DNA of 52,074 bases from Promethearchaeota archaeon. Its GTDB lineage: Archaea; Asgardarchaeota; Lokiarchaeia; Sigyniarchaeales; SOKP01. Within the stretch, counting starts at the first letter, position 1. Every line of letters begins with the position of its first letter. The stretch lies in assembly GCA_048941015.1 (NCBI GenBank), contig JBHLNZ010000016.1, forward strand, positions 1 to 52,074, written 5' to 3'. Both the position numbers and the translations under genes were made by a program. This document shows, one piece after another, positions 9,223 through 34,280 of this stretch. The notes under the pieces were generated by a model. That model was given only the letters and a program-made list of their open reading frames with translations. It ran no database searches and was not told where the DNA came from.

Positions 9223-10473
9223 TTATAAAGCTTTTTTAACCAATTCAACAATATCAAAAACTTGAAGTGAATCTTTGATATTAGATTTAAATTGATTTGC
9301 ACAGAAAGGACAAGCGGATACAATCGCTTCTGCTTGAGTTTCTTCTGCCTCTTTAATTCTTTCAGTTGCTGCAAACTCAGATAAATCTTTAAATGCCGAA
9401 CGGACTCCTCCACCAGATCCACAACACCAAGCATTATATCTATTTCGAACCATTTCAATTAACTCAATCCCGGGAATTTTCTTTAGTAATTCTCTTGGGG
9501 GCTCATAAATTCCCATATGTCGTCCTAGGTGACAAGGATCATGATATGTTACTTTCATATTTAGCTTTTTATTAAATTTTAATTCGTTGTTATTTGCTTT
9601 ATCTAATAAATATTCAGGTAAATGAATTACTTCAAACTCATGTTTAAGTCCAAATTTATTGGGATATGTTTCTTTTAACATTCGAAAGCAACCAGCACAA
9701 GAGGTAATTATTTTTTGAATACCTGCATCTTTAAAAGTATTTATATTTTTCTCAGCAATTTTTAATGCCTTTTCTGTCTGACCTGTCATGTATACTGGAG
9801 ATCCACAGCAAACTTCTTCTTTAAAAATTCTAAATTCAATTCCTAATGTGTTTAAAATTTCTGCTGTTGCTATAGCTATATTCTGCTCTCGATAACTAGA
9901 GGTACAACCAACAAAATAAGCTATTTTTGCATCTGATGAATTTTTAATGTGTGAAGGGACCCATCTTAGACGATCCTCATGTTTTTCCATATAAGGGTTA
10001 TAATTATTTATGACGTGTTCAGTATATTTTTTATGTTCCACCATTGGACCTAGATCTCTTTTAACCGCTTCTTCTCTCATCGCCATCAACCATTCCCCAG
10101 CATAATGATGAATTTCGGGGATTTGACATTGTTGAGTACATGCTAAACAAAGAGAACATTGATAAAATATTTTTATAAGATTTTTAGTCCATTTGAGCTT
10201 GCTTGTATTAACTGCCCATGAGAGTAAATTTTTTCCTCCCAAATAATAGGCTTCAAATTTACCAAATTCTCCAGAAGGACAAACTTTTGACATAAATTTC
10301 TCTTGATAAGCAGTTCTACACGTTCCACATTTACCACATTGGTAAAAAATGTCTCGATAATATTTAAAATCTTTATATCTTTCAAGTATCTTCTTATTTG
10401 CGGCTGTTGTAATTTCAGTAATTCCTTTCCCTTCTAACAATTTCATTTTTTCTTGCATGTTATTTACCTCCAA
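9223..10473 (-). CDS. (Fe-S)-binding protein, GlcF/HdrD-like with CCG domains
   Basis: CxxCxxC clusters, CCGSP, TSCAGC, YHDPCHLGR, CCGSGGG, ACPFC. Confidence 0.9.
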   Translation of the reverse strand: MEVNNMQEKMKLLEGKGITEITTAANKKILERYKDFKYYRDIFYQCGKCGTCRTAYQEKFMSKVCPSGEFGKFEAYYLGGKNLLSWAVNTSKLKWTKNLIKIFYQCSLCLACTQQCQIPEIHHYAGEWLMAMREEAVKRDLGPMVEHKKYTEHVINNYNPYMEKHEDRLRWVPSHIKNSSDAKIAYFVGCTSSYREQNIAIATAEILNTLGIEFRIFKEEVCCGSPVYMTGQTEKALKIAEKNINTFKDAGIQKIITSCAGCFRMLKETYPNKFGLKHEFEVIHLPEYLLDKANNNELKFNKKLNMKVTYHDPCHLGRHMGIYEPPRELLKKIPGIELIEMVRNRYNAWCCGSGGGVRSAFKDLSEFAATERIKEAEETQAEAIVSACPFCANQFKSNIKDSLQVFDIVELVKKAL

Positions 10474-26978: not shown

Positions 26979-28010
26979 TTAATAATCTAATTTTTCTCCA
27001 AGTGCCATTCTACATAAATCGCTGAGTAGGTAATTTTTTATTCCATTTCTTTGAACTAAAGATCCTAGACTATCTAAACACGCGGGGCAAATATATACAC
27101 ATATTTCCGCTTCATGTTCTACCATATCATTTACATTTTCTTTTTGAGCTTTTCGTGTGAGAGATTTTTTTCCTATAGTCGCAAAAATACCAGCACAGCA
27201 CATTGCATTTTCTTTATCATATTTTCTTTTTACTCTTTCAACTCCAATTAAATCACAGATTTTATCTACATAATTGTCTATTTCTGGACTGAATCTATTA
27301 GAACATGATCTCTGATATGCGATCTTCTTATTCAATTTAGTTATTTCAGATTCATGTTCTTTTAGAAAATTATAAAGATATTCATAGATATGAATCGCTT
27401 TAAAACCTTCTGGAAGTTCAATAGCGTTTCGAGGGCAATAAGAAGCGTAAAATCCATAACATTCATCATGGTAGCAAATCATCTCCTTGATATTTTGTTT
27501 TCTAATGTTCTCAATTATTATTGGGGCTCTCTCTTTTATAATTGAATCTCGGGCATAATGATGATACATTAAATTACAAAAAAAAGATAGTCCGCTGACA
27601 TATTGTAAATTATCGAAAAGCTTTCCCTGCATTCTATTCTCATTTACTCTTCCAAATCCACATTTATTTAATACAGGTTTATTAGGATCAATTTGTTTAA
27701 GTCTTAATTCAGGGTGAGGAGCAAACCTTTTAATTGTATTTTCTAGTATTTGAGGAGTAATAGCTAGGGAATTGTATTTCTCCTGTAGTTCAGTAATTAA
27801 ATCAAAAGGGTGTGAGTTATAAGGGCAATATTCATCGCAGGCAAAACAAGTTACACATTCAGATAAAACCCTTGAATTTTCTCCATTTATCAATTTATCT
27901 TTCTCTTTCCTTGCTTCTTCCAAATCTGAGAAATTTATCCATTGGCATCTAGTTAAACAATCGATGTTTTCACAGATATTACAATTAGACTTATCAAACA
28001 TAGTAATCAC
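26979..28010 (-). CDS. (Fe-S)-binding protein with CCG-like domains
   Basis: CNIC..CLTRC, CVTCFACDEYCP, CCAG, CPAC. Confidence 0.82.
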   Translation of the reverse strand: MITMFDKSNCNICENIDCLTRCQWINFSDLEEARKEKDKLINGENSRVLSECVTCFACDEYCPYNSHPFDLITELQEKYNSLAITPQILENTIKRFAPHPELRLKQIDPNKPVLNKCGFGRVNENRMQGKLFDNLQYVSGLSFFCNLMYHHYARDSIIKERAPIIIENIRKQNIKEMICYHDECYGFYASYCPRNAIELPEGFKAIHIYEYLYNFLKEHESEITKLNKKIAYQRSCSNRFSPEIDNYVDKICDLIGVERVKRKYDKENAMCCAGIFATIGKKSLTRKAQKENVNDMVEHEAEICVYICPACLDSLGSLVQRNGIKNYLLSDLCRMALGEKLDY

Positions 28011-28349
28011 AACTTGAATTTTTTAAATTAATTAATAAAATGACTCCATTATAATAAAACTAATTTTTGAGAACCATTGCTTTGAATGAAATAAGTATTT
28101 TTACTCAAACTTCCTGTAATTTTGTTTTAGATATAAATTTTATTCATTAAATCTCCTGATTATGGATAAGGTTTAATATAGGATGTAAATAAATGCCATT
28201 TAGTTAGATCTAATTAAAAATGAATCATTTAATTGTGTTGTTCGAATAATTGAACGATAAATCTTACCAAAATTAATAAAAGTAGATTTTTCCTTAATTT
28301 TTTTAATAAAAAAATAATTTTGGTAAAAAGATAATCAGGTTAGTTATTT

Positions 28350-29366
28350 ATGAATTTATTAAAATATATTTTTAAGAGATTACTTGCCTTAGTTCCGGTT
28401 TTATTTGGTGTCCTTACTTTAACATTTATTCTATCAAGATTAATGCCAGGAGACCCTGTTATAAATCACCTTCCAAAAATATTTACTGAAGAGATGTATC
28501 TTGCAAAATTAAAGGAACTTGGATTGGACAAACCAATTATAGAACAATACTTTGTCTATTTAAGGGATTTATTTACAGGTGATTGGGGTACCTCAGTCGT
28601 TATTTCTAAGGGAGCACCAGTCTGGGATTTAGTGATGGGTAGATTTACGAGAACTTTTGATATTACTATTATTGCTATCTTAATTGCATCAATTGTTGGA
28701 ATAAAAACAGGGGTTATTTCTTCCACGCATAGAAATAAAGCAAAAGATACTATTTATCGTGGTTTTGCACTTGTAGGTGTTTCTATTCCCGTATTCTGGC
28801 TAGGAATGTTGCTTCAATACCTTTTAGGATACAGACTAGATCTTTTCCCTGCTGTAGGATTTAAAACAGCAGGTATCGGTGACCCTAAAGTAATTACTAA
28901 TTTTCGAATAATTGATTGCTTAATAACAGGAAGATTTGATCTACTTTTTGATTACTTATATCATTTATTTTTACCGATTATGTGTTTATCTTTTATTACG
29001 CTAGCATCCATTACCAGACAGACACGTTCGAGTATGCTTGAGGTATTAGAACAAGATTATGTTAGAACTGCTCGAGCAAAGGGTTGTAAAGAAAAAGACG
29101 TTATAAATGCACATGCTCGTAGAAATGCTTTAATTCCTACTATCACAATAATAGGTTTAAATTTCGGAGGATTATTAGCAGGAGCTGTACTCACTGAAAC
29201 CACCTTTAACTTACATGCTGTAGGTGAACTACTAGTTTCTGCTATTCAAAATACAGATTACTGGGTTCTCAATGCTATTGTATTCGTAACAACTATCACT
29301 TTCATAATTATTAATTTAATAACCGATCTAATTTATGGTCTTATAGATCCAAGAATAAGATATTAA
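28350..29366 (+). CDS. Peptide/nickel ABC transporter permease (DppB-like)
   Basis: PGDP, GDWGTS, RSSMLEVLEQDYVRTARAKG, IDPRIRY. Confidence 0.93.
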   Translation: MNLLKYIFKRLLALVPVLFGVLTLTFILSRLMPGDPVINHLPKIFTEEMYLAKLKELGLDKPIIEQYFVYLRDLFTGDWGTSVVISKGAPVWDLVMGRFTRTFDITIIAILIASIVGIKTGVISSTHRNKAKDTIYRGFALVGVSIPVFWLGMLLQYLLGYRLDLFPAVGFKTAGIGDPKVITNFRIIDCLITGRFDLLFDYLYHLFLPIMCLSFITLASITRQTRSSMLEVLEQDYVRTARAKGCKEKDVINAHARRNALIPTITIIGLNFGGLLAGAVLTETTFNLHAVGELLVSAIQNTDYWVLNAIVFVTTITFIIINLITDLIYGLIDPRIRY

Positions 29367-29372
29367 ATCAGA

Positions 29373-29917
29373 TTAATCTTCTATAATAAACTCCCAAGAA
29401 CAATAATAATTCTTAGGGTGAATATCTGGTGGACAACAATTACATATAGTTTTTATTCTATGGTCAATAGTTTTAGCAAAATCACCATATTCCACAAGTC
29501 CAACGGATTTACATGGGAAATCAGGAAGATTTCTTTGATTTCTAGCATGCTGAACTCTACAATTATTCATTCGAAATACACAACGATTTTCAGAGATCTC
29601 TACAATTTCTTGTACATTAATATTAGCGTATACTCGAAATTGTAACGCTTTAATTAAAGCGGGTATTCCTCCATTTTCAGGAATTTTAAACCTTTTCATT
29701 ATGCGTTTAGCTTCAATTACAGTAAACCTTTTCCATTGTTCAACATCTAACTCAATCGCTTTATCAATACCATATTCTTTTTCAACGGCTTGAAACCAGG
29801 TTATAGTTTTAAAGGACTTCTTTTAAAAATTCCATCTATAGCAAGCCAATTTTTAGAAAGATCTTCAATATAATCAATCAATTCTTCTCTTGAGAGTTTT
29901 TCTAAAGCTTTATTCAT
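29373..29917 (-). CDS. DUF6125-like protein, two exons (29917..29830 and 29800..29373), 171 aa after splicing
   Basis: Joined translation MNKALEKLSREELIDYIEDLSKNWLAIDGTWFQAVEKEYGIDKAIELDVEQWKRFTVIEAKRIMKRF...CRVQHAR...FPCK...CCPPD...CSWEF; 88+428=516 nt. Confidence 0.8.
29801..29829 (-). other. Putative 29-nt BHB-type mRNA intron
   Basis: UUUUUAAAAGAAGUCCUUUAAAACUAUAA; central 4-bp helix AUGG/CUAU, 3-nt bulges AAU and AAC, flanking stems; removal restores frame. Confidence 0.78.
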
Positions 29918-29988
29918 TTTTCTTCAATCAATCCAATTTAGTTATAATGATTACGGGAATACAATAAAATAAAAAAATTATTTGAAAT

Positions 29989-31275
29989 TCACAAAAGAGT
30001 TTGAGCAAAAAGCTTTATTTTTTCTCTTATGATTTTTTCTGAAGCAAAACGAGCATCTCCTACATCTACATCAACAAGTAGCATAGGAATACCAACTTCA
30101 TCCCTTAGCGCCTCTCTTAGTAGTTGGGGAACACTACCAAATTGCTTGCACCCGATATGTGATGTAAAAATAAAACAATCAGCTGAATATTCTTTCGCCA
30201 ATCTCACACAATCTTCTAAAAAGGGATAATAAAATTCAGCACTCTGTTTAGTCATTGGAGCTTCCATAGTTTTCTTAGCCATACCATAAAGCATTGTTTC
30301 TAAGCTAGAAGTAGTATTAATTGGGTCAGCAAAATTATAGTTAAAGATATCAAATAATATTGACATACCAAGATGACGATCCAACCATTCACATAACCCT
30401 AAATCAAAAAAAATAATCATGTATGGCCATATACTTCTAATCTTCTCTTCTCCAGCATGATGCTCCTTTTTTTTATATCTTTTTTTAGCGATATCCAACA
30501 TATCTCTATAAAATTCAAGTTTTTCTTGCCTTCCTGACATATAGATCGTTGCCGCTGCTGCCATTGCATTAAACATATTTTCTATAGGACATGGCTTTGC
30601 CTTCTTTAACTCAAATATTTCTAATTGATAACTTGTTGCTTGATTTTCTAAATTTATTGCTTCTCTCAATTTTTTATAATCAGGTTCTTGTCCAATAATT
30701 TTACCTAGCTGTTCTAAACCAATTCTAATTTGCTCTCCATGATAATAGTAGCTTTTTTCTGCTTTCAAAAATGGCAGATCGGGTACAATTAGAGGTATCT
30801 TTTTATGGTATTTGAAAAAAGGATAACTGCTATAGGTGTTATCGCATGGAGCACTTGGAGTAATTATTGCATCAAATTGGAATAAATCATCAAGGGTCAT
30901 ACCCATTGTACCTTTTTGTGAAGTGCAAGTATGAAACGGATGACCCCAGTTAGTGATAATATCATAATATGGTTCAGTTCCATTTGGTAATAAAGTTGCT
31001 AGCAAATAAGATGTTGCCTCAATACATACTGGGACGCAATCAAAACAATATAAAAATTCTGTGGGAAATGAAAAATGATGACCAATGATTGGCAAACCTT
31101 CTCCAGCTTTTTTAATCAAATCATCCATGACAGATTTTATATATTTTAACCCTAATCTTAAAGAGGGGATTCCATGATCTGGAAGAATCCCATCAACTAA
31201 ACCATGAGTACATGTAATTGCTTGATTTAATACTTTGTATGGAATAATTCTATTTTCTGCATCAACTCTATTTAT
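29989..31275 (-). CDS. 2-hydroxyacyl-CoA dehydratase subunit (HgdA/B, FldB/C, BcrB/C family)
   Basis: HTCTSQKG, PCD, GCKQ cluster ligands; frame extends 49 codons upstream of the tracked ATG to ATA 31275 and matches the paralog N-terminus. Confidence 0.85.
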   Translation of the reverse strand: MNRVDAENRIIPYKVLNQAITCTHGLVDGILPDHGIPSLRLGLKYIKSVMDDLIKKAGEGLPIIGHHFSFPTEFLYCFDCVPVCIEATSYLLATLLPNGTEPYYDIITNWGHPFHTCTSQKGTMGMTLDDLFQFDAIITPSAPCDNTYSSYPFFKYHKKIPLIVPDLPFLKAEKSYYYHGEQIRIGLEQLGKIIGQEPDYKKLREAINLENQATSYQLEIFELKKAKPCPIENMFNAMAAAATIYMSGRQEKLEFYRDMLDIAKKRYKKKEHHAGEEKIRSIWPYMIIFFDLGLCEWLDRHLGMSILFDIFNYNFADPINTTSSLETMLYGMAKKTMEAPMTKQSAEFYYPFLEDCVRLAKEYSADCFIFTSHIGCKQFGSVPQLLREALRDEVGIPMLLVDVDVGDARFASEKIIREKIKLFAQTLL

Positions 31276-31317
31276 ATCATTTCACCCTTTATTTTCATAA
31301 TTTAGAATGATAATGTG

Positions 31318-32607
31318 TTATATTAAGGTTTTCACAAAAAAACTAATTTTTTCTTTAAAAGCTTTTAAGGAAGTCATTCTTGCATCTCCAGCATCAAATT
31401 CTATAAGGAGCATTGGAATTCCTACTTCATCTTTTAATGCTTCACGAAGAAGTTGTGGAACAGCACCAAATTGTTTACAAGCAATGCTTTGGGTATATAT
31501 AAAGCAATCCGCAGAAAAATTTTTAGCAAATTTTACGCAATAATCGAGAAAGGGATCAAAAAATTCTGTTGACTGTCTTACCATCGGAAAAGTCATGGCC
31601 TTTTTGCTCATACCTAAAAACATTGTGTCTAATCCTGCTTTTGTATTGATTGGATCTGAAAAATTATAATTAAAAATATCGAATAATACACTTAATCCTA
31701 ATTCTCTATCTAACCATTCCAAGAGGTCAATAGAGAAAAAAGTTATCATGTATGGCCATATAGATCTAAATATTTCTTCTCCCGCATGATGTTCTCTATT
31801 TTTATACCTTTTTTTAATTATTTCTAACATTTCTCTATAAAATTCCAGGTTTTCTTGAGTTCCAGGTATAATAATTGAAGCTCCTGCAGAAACTGCATTA
31901 AAAATGTTCTCAATCGGACTTGGTTTGGCTTTAATTAATTCGAATATTTCTAGTTTATATTCATTAACTTGATTTTCAATCTGAATTGCTTCCTTTAACT
32001 TATTATAATCTGGTTCTTGACCAATAATTTTTCCAAGATCAAATAAGCCCTGTTCTATTTGCTCCGCATAATACTGATAACTTTTTTCTTTATGTAAAAA
32101 AGGTACATCAATTAATACTAATGGAAATTTTTTTTCATATTTAAAGAAGGGATATGAAGCAATTGTACAATCACAAGGAGCAGTTGGACAAATTAAAGCA
32201 TCAAACTTGAAAAGATCGTCTAATGTCATTCCCATCGTTCCTTTTTGTGAAGTACAGGTATGAAACGGGTGACCCCAACTATTCATCAAATCATAATAAT
32301 ACTCAACTCCACCTTCTAAAAAAGTAGCCAATATATATGAAGTACCCTCAATACATACAGGAACACAATCAAAACACTTGAGGTATTCCGATGGAAATGA
32401 AAAATGATAGCCAACTACAGGTAAACCATCATATACTTTATCAATATAACGGTTTAAAACAGATTCAATTTTATTTAAACCAATATTTAAAGAAGGGATG
32501 CCAGTTTCAGGGAGGATTCTTTCAACTAATTCTCTCGTTGTTGATACAGCTTTTAATAACATTTTATAAGGTGTTATTTGTTCCCCTTGTTTTATTATAC
32601 TAACCAT
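31318..32607 (-). CDS. 2-hydroxyacyl-CoA dehydratase subunit (paralog of downstream gene)
   Basis: HTCTSQKG, PCD, ACKQ, IEFDAGD. Confidence 0.88.
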   Translation of the reverse strand: MVSIIKQGEQITPYKMLLKAVSTTRELVERILPETGIPSLNIGLNKIESVLNRYIDKVYDGLPVVGYHFSFPSEYLKCFDCVPVCIEGTSYILATFLEGGVEYYYDLMNSWGHPFHTCTSQKGTMGMTLDDLFKFDALICPTAPCDCTIASYPFFKYEKKFPLVLIDVPFLHKEKSYQYYAEQIEQGLFDLGKIIGQEPDYNKLKEAIQIENQVNEYKLEIFELIKAKPSPIENIFNAVSAGASIIIPGTQENLEFYREMLEIIKKRYKNREHHAGEEIFRSIWPYMITFFSIDLLEWLDRELGLSVLFDIFNYNFSDPINTKAGLDTMFLGMSKKAMTFPMVRQSTEFFDPFLDYCVKFAKNFSADCFIYTQSIACKQFGAVPQLLREALKDEVGIPMLLIEFDAGDARMTSLKAFKEKISFFVKTLI

Positions 32608-32627
32608 TAACTAACACTTATATCAAT

Positions 32628-33779
32628 TTAAATCATTTCTAAAAACGCTTCTATACGAGTTTGAAGGCGACTTGTATCTGCTTGATAAAATTCTCTGTCC
32701 ATATTTAAAACAGGTATCTCTAAATCTTTTAATTCGTGGTTGAAGAGCATATTATCACATCCATGTAAATCACAATTATTAATTCTCTGTAATATTACTC
32801 CTTCGATATTTGCTTCTTTAATTTGTTCCTTTAAAAAATTCAAGCGTCTTTTGTGGTCATCCATCATTCTAGGGCAAGAAATTCTATAATATAATCGACG
32901 TGTAATTTCAGTAATTGGATCCATATTTGGTTTAATTTCTATATCATCCATAAAGTTCCTTGTTCCAAAACATAAAAAGTCTGATGCTATAAAAGCTCCT
33001 GAATTTTCTATTAATTGAGTGAACTCAATATTATCAACAACGCTCCCTACTAGAAGGATCCTTTTTTTACCATCAACATTAAGACTATCTCTTTCCTCTA
33101 GTAAATTAGTTATTCTCTTTAACTGTTGATTTGCAAATTCTTTTGAAACTGAAGCATTTGCCATATTAATTTGTAGGGCTTCAGTTCCAGTGAGTTTTGG
33201 ATTTTCTTGGATTCTTAATTGGTGTAAATCACGAAGTAATTCTCTATTTTCATTATAGATTTCGATAGAATGTAATAATTTTTCATCACTAATTTCATTT
33301 AAATTATAAGCTATTTCGATTTCTCTCTTAAACTCTTCAATTTCTTTCTTATACCAATCAAATCCTTCATTAGTTATAACATGAGGTAATGCTAAATAAA
33401 AACGAGGAACTGTTTTATTAAAACCTTCTCTTTTAAAAACCTTTAGATCAAATAACTCGAACATCCGCCTGCTATGATCACAGCTATTACACACTAAAAA
33501 ACCATCTAGGAAATCATAACCACCTTTCAATGCTAAATCTAATGTAGCCCTTACAAATGAACATGTGAATCTAACCATATAAATATCTGCTAGTTCAGTG
33601 TCTTTATTACCTGTAGCGCGGATTCTAAAAGGTAAAATATCTGCAGCAAACAACAATTCTTCAGGGATATAAGTACAATAAAAACCAATAACCTTTTTAC
33701 CGGATTTTTGCCAATCTTTAATATATTGATTTTCAATATCATTAGCTATTTTTATAAAAGAATCATGTTCAAGGTTCAA
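32628..33779 (-). CDS. 2-hydroxyacyl-CoA dehydratase subunit (HgdB/BcrC-like)
   Basis: GFYCTYIPEE, TCSF, SCD, NCD, TRIEAFLE. Confidence 0.9.
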   Translation of the reverse strand: MNLEHDSFIKIANDIENQYIKDWQKSGKKVIGFYCTYIPEELLFAADILPFRIRATGNKDTELADIYMVRFTCSFVRATLDLALKGGYDFLDGFLVCNSCDHSRRMFELFDLKVFKREGFNKTVPRFYLALPHVITNEGFDWYKKEIEEFKREIEIAYNLNEISDEKLLHSIEIYNENRELLRDLHQLRIQENPKLTGTEALQINMANASVSKEFANQQLKRITNLLEERDSLNVDGKKRILLVGSVVDNIEFTQLIENSGAFIASDFLCFGTRNFMDDIEIKPNMDPITEITRRLYYRISCPRMMDDHKRRLNFLKEQIKEANIEGVILQRINNCDLHGCDNMLFNHELKDLEIPVLNMDREFYQADTSRLQTRIEAFLEMI

Positions 33780-33791
33780 TTTTTTTAGACC

Positions 33792-34280
33792 TCATTTTTT
33801 TTTCTTATATACATCATTTTTTCCGATCATAAGACATCTTACTAATTTAATTGCGGCAATATAAGATCCTTTAATTTTTGCTTTTCTTGGAATTATATAC
33901 TTCAATAACTTCAATAGACCAAATACATTGCTTTTAGATTTTATAATATCGCTTATAACTTTTAGAATTTTTTCTTCTTTTACATCTATTACTATTGTTG
34001 CTACTGGATTCTTCGCCTTTTCAGCTAGAGTATCAAATTTGTTCCTGTCTGAAGTTAAAATGAAAGTTATATACCCATCTAATTCTTTTAAGTATAATTC
34101 TATTTCCTGACCTTCTCTTTTCCCCACTTTTTTGAATGGCTCATCCAAACCAAATAAATCTACTAACATCTTAGCTAATCTTGCTATATTAAGGACTTTT
34201 GTTTCTCTTACTAAATTCTCTGCTTTAATATTTCTAGAAGTATCCTTTTCTCCTTGTAATTGAGTAATATCTGTCACCAT
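33792..34280 (-). CDS. Hypothetical protein, weakly SCP2-like
   Basis: PVATIVID...KAKIKGS pattern; co-oriented upstream of dehydratases. Confidence 0.45.
   Translation of the reverse strand: MVTDITQLQGEKDTSRNIKAENLVRETKVLNIARLAKMLVDLFGLDEPFKKVGKREGQEIELYLKELDGYITFILTSDRNKFDTLAEKAKNPVATIVIDVKEEKILKVISDIIKSKSNVFGLLKLLKYIIPRKAKIKGSYIAAIKLVRCLMIGKNDVYKKKK

What the first reader, a model, noticed from the sequence alone, without database searches (positions are those of the whole stretch)
29801..29917. Splicing as an on/off switch: unspliced transcript stops inside the intron (XBP1/HAC1-like logic)
Seen: without splicing, translation runs ...AIDG-IFKRSPLKL and ends at a UAA formed by the last 3 intron nucleotides (29803-29801). 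This gives a 38-aa peptide, so full-length protein depends on excision of a non-3n intron. The outer stem comes from the codons W-L-A and Q-A themselves, so the coding sequence pre-forms part of the splice substrate. Established: eukaryotic XBP1/HAC1 mRNAs are activated by non-spliceosomal removal of an intron followed by tRNA-ligase joining. Inference: this may be a regulated prokaryotic analogue that couples expression to EndA/RtcB activity, or a record of intron transposition from tRNA genes into mRNA.
Basis: inference. Interest (0 to 1): 0.75.

Follow-up and report, generated by a model that had tools for sequence, protein, structure and literature searches.

The report
tRNA-type mini-intron in Asgard gene
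A 29-base insert shaped like a tRNA intron splits a small conserved gene of a Loki-type (Asgard) archaeon and very probably has to be cut out of the messenger RNA by the tRNA-splicing enzymes, but nothing indicates that this cutting is used as a regulated on/off switch.

Summary
On the minus strand a DUF6125 gene is split after codon 29 by 29 nt. Unspliced, it yields a 38-aa peptide ending at UAA 29803-29801. Removing the insert restores a 171-aa protein colinear with intronless orthologues and the Pfam profile.

The insert folds as a canonical bulge-helix-bulge (BHB) substrate: a 4-bp helix AUGG/CUAU, bulges AA|U and AA|C, and a 7-bp inner stem.

I found 17 further copies of the same-site insert (28-29 nt): five in other Promethearchaeota genomes and twelve on metagenome contigs. 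Spliced frames are intact wherever the contig is long enough, dN/dS is about 0.08, and the inner stem shows compensatory changes (AU/UA/GC). The genome encodes EndA and RtcB. I therefore read it as a real, spliced mRNA intron (about 0.85). No RNA data were available.

The XBP1/HAC1-like regulated switch is not supported:
- Most orthologues in the genus, including the nearest sisters, lack the intron.
- The 38-aa product is unique to this genome; 15 other variants checked stop at 31 aa.
- PFK and DnaG in the same genome carry the same kind of intron.
- The W-L-A/Q-A outer stem is not conserved.
- The 29-mer has no relative elsewhere in the genome.

This scan has already reported such Asgard mRNA introns on other DNA.

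The parts
29830..29917 (-). Exon 1: start codon at 29917, 29 codons (M...NWLAIDG), plus the first base of the Thr codon if the cut falls after the second bulge base.
   Evidence: dN/dS of exon 1 alone is 0.16 among intron-bearing copies.
29801..29829 (-). 29-nt BHB intron. 29802-29830 is equally possible because both bulges begin with AA. Its last three bases, 29803-29801, form the in-frame UAA.
29373..29800 (-). Exon 2: the rest of DUF6125 (TWFQAVEK... to stop; 142 codons counting the split Thr codon).
   Evidence: Pfam E = 2.4e-67, profile positions 26-163. 72-84% identical to the genus orthologues and 55-73% to the more distant full-length ones.
29832..29835 (-). Central helix H, 5' strand AUGG (exon 1, codons Asp-Gly). 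It pairs with 29803-29806.
   Evidence: 94.2% of cells paired across 14 variants; G-U here becomes G-C in 6 variants.
29829..29831 (-). 5' bulge A A | U, carrying the 5' splice site.
   Evidence: Read from the sequence. The bulge is AAU or AAA in all variants.
29807..29828 (-). Inner intron hairpin h': UUUUAAA (29828-29822) pairs with UUUAAAA (29813-29807) around an 8-nt loop.
   Evidence: BHB fold at -11.6 against an MFE of -12.1 kcal/mol. (96.2% paired; the pair next to the bulges is AU:5, UA:5, GC:3).
29803..29806 (-). Central helix H, 3' strand CUAU (the 3' end of the intron).
29800..29802 (-). 3' bulge A A | C, carrying the 3' splice site.
   Evidence: Invariant AAC in all 14 aligned variants.
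29836..29838 (-). Proximal exon-exon helix h, 5' strand UAG. It pairs with CUG at 29797-29799.
   Evidence: 84.6% paired, no covariation (the bases are constrained by coding).
29797..29799 (-). Proximal exon-exon helix h, 3' strand CUG.
29842..29847 (-). Outer stem GGCUUG (codons W-L-A), pairing with CAAGCC at 29787-29792. Perfect only in this genome.
   Evidence: 67.9% paired, no covariation, not above controls.
29989..31128 (-). Upstream neighbour on the same strand, 71 nt away: the third of three HGD-D (2-hydroxyacyl-CoA dehydratase family) genes. It may form an operon with DUF6125.
   Evidence: The adjacency is seen in only 9 of 35 orthologous loci.

Best explanation
This is an archaeal bulge-helix-bulge (BHB) intron inside a protein-coding gene. 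The pre-mRNA of the DUF6125 gene folds around the insert into helix - 3-nt bulge - 4-bp helix - 3-nt bulge - helix. The tRNA-splicing endonuclease EndA cuts in both bulges, and RtcB joins the exons to GGA|ACC. The 29-nt intron, probably released as a small circle, carries away the frameshift and the UAA, and the 171-aa protein is made.

Shown here: the anatomy, the seamless junction, conservation with compensatory changes, purifying selection on both exons, and the presence of the enzymes.

Inferred: that cutting and joining actually occur, and that they are constitutive. On this reading the intron is a tolerated, slowly decaying insertion that arose within this genus of Promethearchaeota (Loki-type Asgard archaea). 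It is kept spliceable by selection and has been lost precisely several times. It is not a dedicated regulatory device.
For: - Junction: the Pfam profile coordinates abut exactly. The joined product is colinear with 27 of 30 orthologues, all of which read ...AIDG-TWFQ... or ...AHDG-LWFQ... without an insert.
- Structure: a canonical hBHBh' can be drawn. It is the unconstrained MFE in the closest intron-bearing species G062 and lies within 0.5 kcal/mol of the MFE here.
- Comparative: a same-site insert of 28-29 nt occurs in G015, G030 and G062, in two further Promethearchaeota MAGs and on 12 metagenome contigs. On 14 aligned variants 93.3% of BHB cells pair, against 21-59% when partners are slid. 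The pair abutting the bulges is AU/UA/GC, and the next pairs are UA/GC and UA/CG/GU.
- Function retained: every one of the 12 metagenome contigs long enough gives an intact 171-173-aa spliced ORF. Median dN/dS is 0.075, and 0.16 for exon 1 alone. No other close DUF6125 copy exists in the genome.
- Machinery: a 205-aa EndA-family ORF, a second EndA-family C-terminus at a contig edge, and RtcB. Asgard EndA is reported as the broad-specificity (alpha-beta)2 type (PMC5829648).
- Same genome: PFK and DnaG are split inside universally conserved motifs by 31- and 38-nt inserts with the same architecture.
Against: - No RNA evidence. No RNA run was listed for this DNA. No full-length 171-aa protein close to the spliced product of this or any other intron-bearing copy was among the top 120 of 2302 database homologues (best match 95%).
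- Thermodynamic support is weak. The 76-nt region folds no better than shuffles (z = -0.8), as expected for short A+U-rich helices.
- In the G015/G030 type the outermost pair of the 4-bp helix is A-A and the proximal exon helix is weakened. Those copies are relaxed (HBh'-like) substrates.
- By the alignment to M. jannaschii EndA, the one complete EndA-family ORF has Ala where the catalytic His sits. The catalytic subunit is therefore presumably the gene cut off at the contig edge, which I could not verify.
- 'Constitutive' is an inference from distribution, not a measurement.
Confidence: 0.8

Rival explanations
1. Regulated switch. Splicing of this intron is conditional, so DUF6125 output is coupled to EndA/RtcB activity or to a signal, as XBP1/HAC1 output is coupled to IRE1.
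For: Full-length protein strictly needs excision, and the unspliced message terminates early. 15 of 16 variants keep a UAA as the third intron codon, which would give a clean 'off' state. A negative-regulator role was once proposed for the cbf5 intron (PMC2738675).
Against: - The intron is absent from most orthologues, and sister species differ in presence or absence. An AU test rejects one intron-bearing clade (p = 0.0005).
- The unspliced tail is not conserved.
- The conserved UAA lies in the conserved stem arm and may simply reflect common descent.
- The structure is a plain EndA substrate with no alternative fold or sensor.
- No KEN-domain nuclease scores above the cut-off.
- Housekeeping genes in the same genome carry the same kind of intron.
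Confidence: 0.08
2. Programmed -1 ribosomal frameshifting. The ribosome slips on U_UUA_AAA (29811-29805, inside the insert) into the exon-2 frame, giving a protein with a 10-residue insertion.
For: A formally perfect X_XXY_YYZ heptamer lies in the right frame here, and exon 2 is in the -1 frame. cbf5 introns were historically confused with frameshifts (PMC2738675).
Against: - The product would carry 10 extra residues inside the AIDG-TWFQ motif, which is contiguous in every intronless orthologue and in the Pfam profile.
- In 15 other variants checked the 0-frame UAA comes two codons into the insert, and the heptamer is not conserved.
- The 28-nt variants put exon 2 in the +1 frame, not the -1 frame.
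Confidence: 0.02
3. Dead or split gene. The insert inactivated the gene, or the two parts are made as separate polypeptides (about 38 aa and about 108-142 aa).
For: Public gene calling gives only a 143-aa fragment for this locus (P0001).
Against: - Both exons are under strong purifying selection across lineages that all keep the insert.
- There are no further lesions in any of the 12 metagenome copies checked.
- Exon 2 has no ATG/GTG/TTG between the upstream stop of its frame and 29699, 34 codons into the conserved domain.
- The insert itself evolves under a base-pairing constraint, which a dead gene would not impose.
Confidence: 0.03
4. Translational bypassing (as in T4 gene 60). The ribosome takes off at GGA and lands after the hairpin.
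For: The take-off-like codon GGA is followed by a hairpin and, in most variants, a nearby stop.
Against: There is no matching GGA (or any Gly) landing codon before ACC at the 3' end. The conserved features are those of a BHB (two 3-nt bulges, a 4-bp helix), which bypassing does not need.
Confidence: 0.01

Closest known systems
BHB intron in the cbf5 pre-mRNA of Crenarchaeota (Desulfurococcales, Sulfolobales; Watanabe 2002, Yoshinari 2006, Yokobori 2009 = PMC2738675)
   Same: A short ORF-less insert (16-44 bp there, 28-29 nt here) inside a coding sequence, folding as a BHB or relaxed BHB. The protein needs its removal. The host has a hetero-oligomeric EndA. The distribution is lineage-specific, with inferred secondary losses. 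Genome annotation mis-calls the gene.
   Different: A different phylum (Asgard/Promethearchaeota), a different gene (DUF6125, function unknown) and a mesophile-like A+U-rich genome (29.4% G+C). Splicing is experimentally shown for cbf5 but not here. Presence or absence turns over within a single genus here.
Canonical and non-canonical BHB introns of archaeal tRNA and rRNA genes
   Same: The same hBHBh' geometry, the same presumed enzymes (EndA, RtcB), and a size similar to the tRNA introns predicted in this genome (20-47 nt for most). Asgard tRNA genes are reported to be heavily interrupted, with repeated gains (bioRxiv 10.64898/2026.10.13.758758).
   Different: The host RNA is an mRNA, so the exon helices must be built from codons, and the intron must be removed in competition with translation. 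There is no sequence similarity to any tRNA intron or other locus of this genome.
IRE1-dependent unconventional splicing of XBP1 / HAC1 / bZIP60 mRNA
   Same: Non-spliceosomal excision. A non-3n intron (26 nt in XBP1) whose removal changes the reading frame. RtcB-family ligation in metazoa.
   Different: IRE1 cuts in two 7-nt loops of twin hairpins and is activated by stress. Here the sites are in the 3-nt bulges of a BHB, the enzyme is the housekeeping tRNA endonuclease, no KEN-domain protein scores above the cut-off, and the unspliced product is not conserved. The likeness is of logic, not of family.

Membership tests
Archaeal BHB (EndA-type) intron | Two 3-nt bulges on opposite strands separated by a 4-bp helix. 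| tested here: met
   AUGG/CUAU with bulges AAU and AAC. The helix is 94.2% paired over 14 variants. In the G015/G030 type one pair is A-A (relaxed).
Archaeal BHB (EndA-type) intron | Flanking helices h (exon-exon) and h' (intron-intron) that abut the bulges. | tested here: met
   h' is 7 bp here, 96.2% paired, with compensatory AU/UA/GC changes. h is 3 bp (UAG/CUG), 84.6% paired.
Archaeal BHB (EndA-type) intron | Cuts at symmetric positions in the bulges give a functional mature RNA. | tested here: met
   Cutting after bulge base 1 or 2 gives GGA|ACC. The product is colinear with intronless orthologues and with the Pfam profile.
Archaeal BHB (EndA-type) intron | The host encodes the splicing endonuclease and an RtcB ligase. 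| tested here: met
   PF01974 and PF02778 ORF at C37. A second EndA-family C-terminus at C26:1-129. RtcB at E = 1e-168. Which subunit is catalytic was not resolved.
Archaeal BHB (EndA-type) intron | The intron is absent from the mature RNA. | not testable with these tools
   No RNA run was listed. No spliced-form protein was among the top database hits.
IRE1-type regulated unconventional mRNA splicing (XBP1/HAC1) | A kinase/KEN-domain endonuclease (IRE1) is present. | tested here: not met
   PF06479 gives only one sub-threshold hit (19 bits against a cut-off of 23.3) in an ORF that has no kinase look.
IRE1-type regulated unconventional mRNA splicing (XBP1/HAC1) | Cleavage sites in the 7-nt loops of twin stem-loops. 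| tested here: not met
   The sites lie in the 3-nt bulges of one BHB.
IRE1-type regulated unconventional mRNA splicing (XBP1/HAC1) | A frame-changing intron whose removal creates the active protein. | tested here: met
   28 or 29 nt. Unspliced, the message gives 31-38 aa; spliced, 171 aa.
IRE1-type regulated unconventional mRNA splicing (XBP1/HAC1) | Condition-dependent splicing. | not testable with these tools
   No RNA data. The patchy distribution of the intron argues against need but does not measure regulation.
Programmed -1 frameshift site | A conserved slippery heptamer ahead of the 0-frame stop, giving a product that matches homologues. | tested here: not met
   The heptamer is present only in G000. 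The other variants stop two codons into the insert, and the 28-nt variants need +1. The product would carry an insertion that no homologue has.

The most novel reading that the evidence does not exclude
The intron acts as a throttle. Because transcription and translation are coupled, the ribosome reaches the intron 87 nt after the start codon. The fraction of DUF6125 made would then depend on how fast EndA/RtcB act relative to translation. The UAA kept at the third intron codon in 15 of 16 variants would give a clean 'off' product. On this reading, expression of the last gene of a 2-hydroxyacyl-CoA-dehydratase-like cluster is tied to the cell's RNA-splicing or RNA-repair state. That would be a true prokaryotic counterpart of XBP1/HAC1 logic in the closest archaeal relatives of eukaryotes.
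Probability: 0.08. Interest if true: 0.85.

Novelty: new member of a known kind. Interest (0 to 1): 0.55.

Why it matters
In the literature I could search, endonuclease-dependent splicing inside an archaeal coding sequence is confirmed only for cbf5 of Crenarchaeota (PMC2738675).

Here the same kind of intron sits in a protein gene of an Asgard archaeon. At least 18 natural copies of it exist, their stems covary, and presence or absence turns over within one genus. This makes it a tractable natural series for three questions: how mRNA introns are gained, how they are kept spliceable, and how they are precisely lost in the prokaryotic lineage closest to eukaryotes.

It also matters practically. 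Gene callers truncate such genes (the public call is a 143-aa fragment), so Asgard proteomes are systematically mis-annotated wherever these introns occur.

The specific claim of a regulated switch would be important if true, but at present it has no support.

Tried and rejected
1. RNA evidence. The look-up of sequencing runs (kind rna) on window 27500-32500 listed no RNA holder, so read laying could not be used.
2. Spliced-RNA-derived proteins. A database search with exon 2 gave 2302 homologues. In the top 120 the only 100% match is the truncated 143-aa call. No full-length protein there was at least 99% identical to the spliced product of any intron-bearing copy; the best was 95%. Clusters are collapsed at 90% identity, so this is weak.
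3. Genome-wide census of BHB introns in protein genes. A motif scan with an ORF-fusion filter gave 49,597 raw motifs and 2,537 'fusing' candidates. These were dominated by gene-to-gene junctions and by chance open frames in the A+U-rich DNA. I abandoned it as a count and used it only for the chance rate of the motif. The present intron was recovered (C20, minus strand, L = 29).
4. Plain thermodynamic folding. The MFE of the 76-nt region is not the BHB and is no better than shuffles, so it is uninformative for short A+U helices.
5. Similarity of the 29-mer to tRNA introns or any other locus of the genome. Only AT-rich chance matches of up to 16 nt were found.
6. The outer W-L-A/Q-A stem as a conserved part of the substrate: rejected.
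7. -1 frameshifting, bypassing, pseudogene and split gene: rejected (see rivals).
8. IRE1-like nuclease: only a sub-threshold KEN hit.
9. Conserved operon context. HGD-D adjacency holds in only 9 of 35 loci.

Full report
**What is in the sequence.** On the minus strand an ATG at 29917 opens a 38-codon frame (M...NWLAIDG-IFKRSPLKL) that ends at TAA 29803-29801. One base later, in another frame, a 142-codon frame runs to 29373. It has no ATG, GTG or TTG before 29699.

Pfam places residues 7-31 of the short ORF on DUF6125 profile positions 2-26, and residues 2-139 of the long frame on positions 26-163 (E = 2.4e-67). The two pieces are therefore adjacent parts of one domain, separated by 29 nt. 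Because A follows both boundaries, the insert can be written 29830..29802 or 29829..29801. Either way the join is GGA|ACC, that is ...AIDG-TWFQ....

**Whose genome.** The assembly has 3.59 Mb in 144 contigs at 29.4% G+C. It carries intron-containing tRNA genes, an EndA-family ORF and RtcB. Homologous proteins and the contigs with the same insert are labelled Promethearchaeota, Lokiarchaeota and other Asgard MAGs. It is a Loki-type Asgard archaeon.

**Orthologues define the junction.**
- Among 60 relatives, 29 loci outside the own genome gave full-length orthologues. In 27 of them the gene is uninterrupted and colinear with the joined product over residues 1-171. The motif AIDG-TWFQ (AHDG-LWFQ in other families) is contiguous in all of them.
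- Two species (G015, G030) have a 29-nt insert at exactly the same place. A search of all 42 genomes of the genus added G062, with 28 nt.
- A pattern scan of species genomes added two more Promethearchaeota MAGs. A scan of metagenome contigs added 12 copies.
- Every one of the 12 metagenome contigs long enough yields an intact 171-173-aa frame after excision.
- Among 12 complete intron-bearing genes the median dN/dS is 0.075, and 0.16 for exon 1 alone.
- The genome has no second close copy; the other DUF6125 hits are distant paralogues.

The gene is therefore alive in every lineage that carries the insert, and the protein spans both pieces.

**The insert is a BHB.** The RNA can form the following elements:
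- a proximal exon helix UAG/CUG;
- a 4-bp helix AUGG/CUAU, whose 5' strand is codons Asp-Gly and whose 3' strand is the 3' end of the intron;
- two 3-nt bulges, AA|U and AA|C;
- a 7-bp intron stem UUUUAAA/UUUAAAA around an 8-nt loop.

This arrangement matches the geometry of archaeal tRNA introns, with the bulges lying 3' of the central-helix strands. I derived that geometry from the 37/38 intron and my own knowledge; the motif definition is in PMC5829648.

Forced into this shape the 76-mer has -11.6 kcal/mol, against -12.1 for the MFE. In G062 the BHB is the MFE itself. Plain folding is not better than shuffles, which is unsurprising for short A+U helices.

The comparative signal is what counts. 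On 14 aligned variants (alignment A2), 93.3% of the cells of the 15 BHB pairs are standard pairs. With partners slid by 1-3 columns the figure is 21-59%, and none of 500 shuffles reached the observed value.
- The pair abutting the bulges is A-U in five sequences, U-A in five and G-C in three.
- The next pairs are U-A/G-C and U-A/C-G/G-U.
- In the central helix, G-U alternates with G-C.
- The loop is free to vary.

A further genome variant (DZ3M.111) has G-C at the first pair combined with the CUAU strand.

The chance rate of even a minimal BHB at a given position and length is about 1e-4 in this genome. The structure-defined cuts coincide with the homology-defined boundary.

**Machinery.** A 205-aa ORF on C37 carries both EndA domains. 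Its best solved relative is the M. jannaschii enzyme. In that alignment it keeps the Tyr and Lys of the catalytic triad but has Ala at the His position. A second EndA-family C-terminus (...SVRKK...) lies at the very start of contig C26. Two subunits fit the (alpha-beta)2 enzyme with broad substrate range that PMC5829648 reports for Asgard archaea. I could not decide which one is catalytic.

**Rivals.**
- *-1 frameshifting.* A U_UUA_AAA heptamer lies in the insert in the right frame, so -1 frameshifting had to be considered. It would put 10 extra residues into a motif that is contiguous everywhere else. It is not conserved: 15 other variants checked have UAA two codons into the insert. The 28-nt variants would need +1 instead.
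- *Bypassing.* It lacks a landing codon.
- *Pseudogene or split gene.* Both conflict with the selection data and with the pairing constraint on the insert.
- *Assembly artefact.* It is excluded by 18 independent assemblies.

The evidence on regulation points the other way.
1. On the gene tree the intron-bearing genes occur only inside the genus clade but are scattered in it. Intronless sisters sit next to each of them: G032 next to G000, G033 inside the 28-nt group, G061 next to G015. Starred branches force at least 3 changes among genomes, and 7 changes once metagenome copies are added. An AU test rejects a single intron-bearing clade at p = 0.0005. Two caveats apply: this is a gene tree, and the group was named after the tree was seen. 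Because the inserts share site, length and a recognisable consensus, the simplest history is one gain followed by repeated precise loss (as proposed for cbf5, PMC2738675) or lateral spread. Either way the gene functions without the insert.
2. The 38-aa product is peculiar to this genome. 15 other variants checked stop after DG plus two residues, giving 31 aa, with tails KF, KS, KE, KN, KA, NY and IF.
3. The same genome has BHB inserts in phosphofructokinase (31 nt, splitting MTGGG|DCPGLN; helix GCGG/CCGU, bulges AG|U and AG|A, 9-bp stem) and in DnaG (38 nt, splitting GAIFGQ|TEGLL). I checked both myself after earlier notes of this scan pointed to them. Cells that need splicing for glycolysis and priming must splice constitutively.
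4. The sites are BHB bulges, not IRE1-type loops, and no KEN domain passes the cut-off.
5. The outer stem built from the W-L-A and Q-A codons is perfect only here and shows no covariation.
6. The 29-mer has no relative elsewhere in the genome, so recent transposition from a tRNA gene has no support.

None of this measures splicing efficiency. A modest throttling effect remains possible, and I give a dedicated regulatory role about 0.08.

**Comparison with what is known.** The closest case is the cbf5 intron of Crenarchaeota. It is of the same kind (short, ORF-less, BHB or relaxed BHB, needed for the protein, gained and lost by lineage, mis-annotated). That paper states that no archaeal pre-mRNA splicing other than cbf5 had been confirmed (PMC2738675). 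My literature searches found no report of BHB introns in Asgard protein genes. A 2026 preprint treats only Asgard tRNA introns.

This scan has already reported the same kind of intron in other Asgard genomes and in other genes of this genome. Two of those reports cite RNA-derived contigs lacking the intron. I did not re-test those, and they are not evidence for this locus.

I therefore file this as a new member of a known kind. It works like the cbf5 intron. It resembles XBP1/HAC1 in logic only.

**Limits.**
- There is no RNA evidence.
- The exact cut position within the bulges cannot be told from the sequence, because both bulges begin with AA.
- The intron history rests on a gene tree.
- The function of DUF6125 and its link to the neighbouring HGD-D genes are unknown. 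The adjacency holds in only 9 of 35 loci.

Noticed in passing
Own genome G000, contig C58 minus strand, about 125486-125590 in reverse-complement coordinates (outside the window): Phosphofructokinase is split between MTGGG and DCPGLN by a 31-nt insert with a textbook BHB: helix GCGG/CCGU, bulges AG|U and AG|A, and a perfect 9-bp stem. The insert carries in-frame UAG UAG.
   Followed up: partly
Own genome G000, contig C115 minus strand, about 9663-9760 in reverse-complement coordinates (outside the window): DnaG is split between GAIFGQ and TEGLL by a 38-nt insert: helix GGCC/GGCU and AAA bulges. The insert contains a near-direct repeat, UCGGCUUAA / UCGGCUAAA, just before the 3' site.
   Followed up: partly
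Alignment A2 columns 32-34, equivalent to window 29822-29824: 15 of 16 variants of this intron keep an in-frame UAA as the third intron codon, inside the conserved stem arm UAAAG. Only the window's copy has lost it (AAA) and reads on to the UAA at the 3' splice site. Whether the early stop is selected or merely inherited is open.
   Followed up: partly
L001:1210-1827 (G000 C37) and L057:1-129 (G000 C26): The only complete EndA-family ORF (205 aa) aligns with Ala at the catalytic His of M. jannaschii EndA. A second EndA-family gene is cut off by a contig end, leaving 42 C-terminal residues with SVRKK. This suggests a two-subunit enzyme whose catalytic subunit is incompletely assembled.
   Followed up: partly
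window 29373-29801 (public protein cluster P0001): The public gene call for this locus is a 143-aa fragment beginning MTWFQ..., which means the start was placed on the last intron codon. Exon 1 is unannotated.
   Followed up: yes
window 29989-34280, minus strand: Three consecutive HGD-D family genes (2-hydroxyacyl-CoA dehydratase / benzoyl-CoA reductase-like) and a 162-aa ORF without a Pfam hit lie upstream of DUF6125 on the same strand. The adjacency of HGD-D and DUF6125 recurs in only 9 of 35 orthologous loci.
   Followed up: partly
L064:1156-2640 (G000 C112): A 494-aa ORF gives a sub-threshold match to the IRE1/RNase L KEN domain (PF06479; 19 bits, E = 0.003). It has no kinase-like look and the match is probably spurious.
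   Followed up: no
L040 (G062), L047, L053, L062: One sub-lineage has a 28-nt version of the intron, with one loop base fewer and a perfect AUGG/CCAU helix. The frame offset between the exons therefore differs between lineages (+1 against -1). This by itself argues against any frameshift-based decoding.
   Followed up: yes
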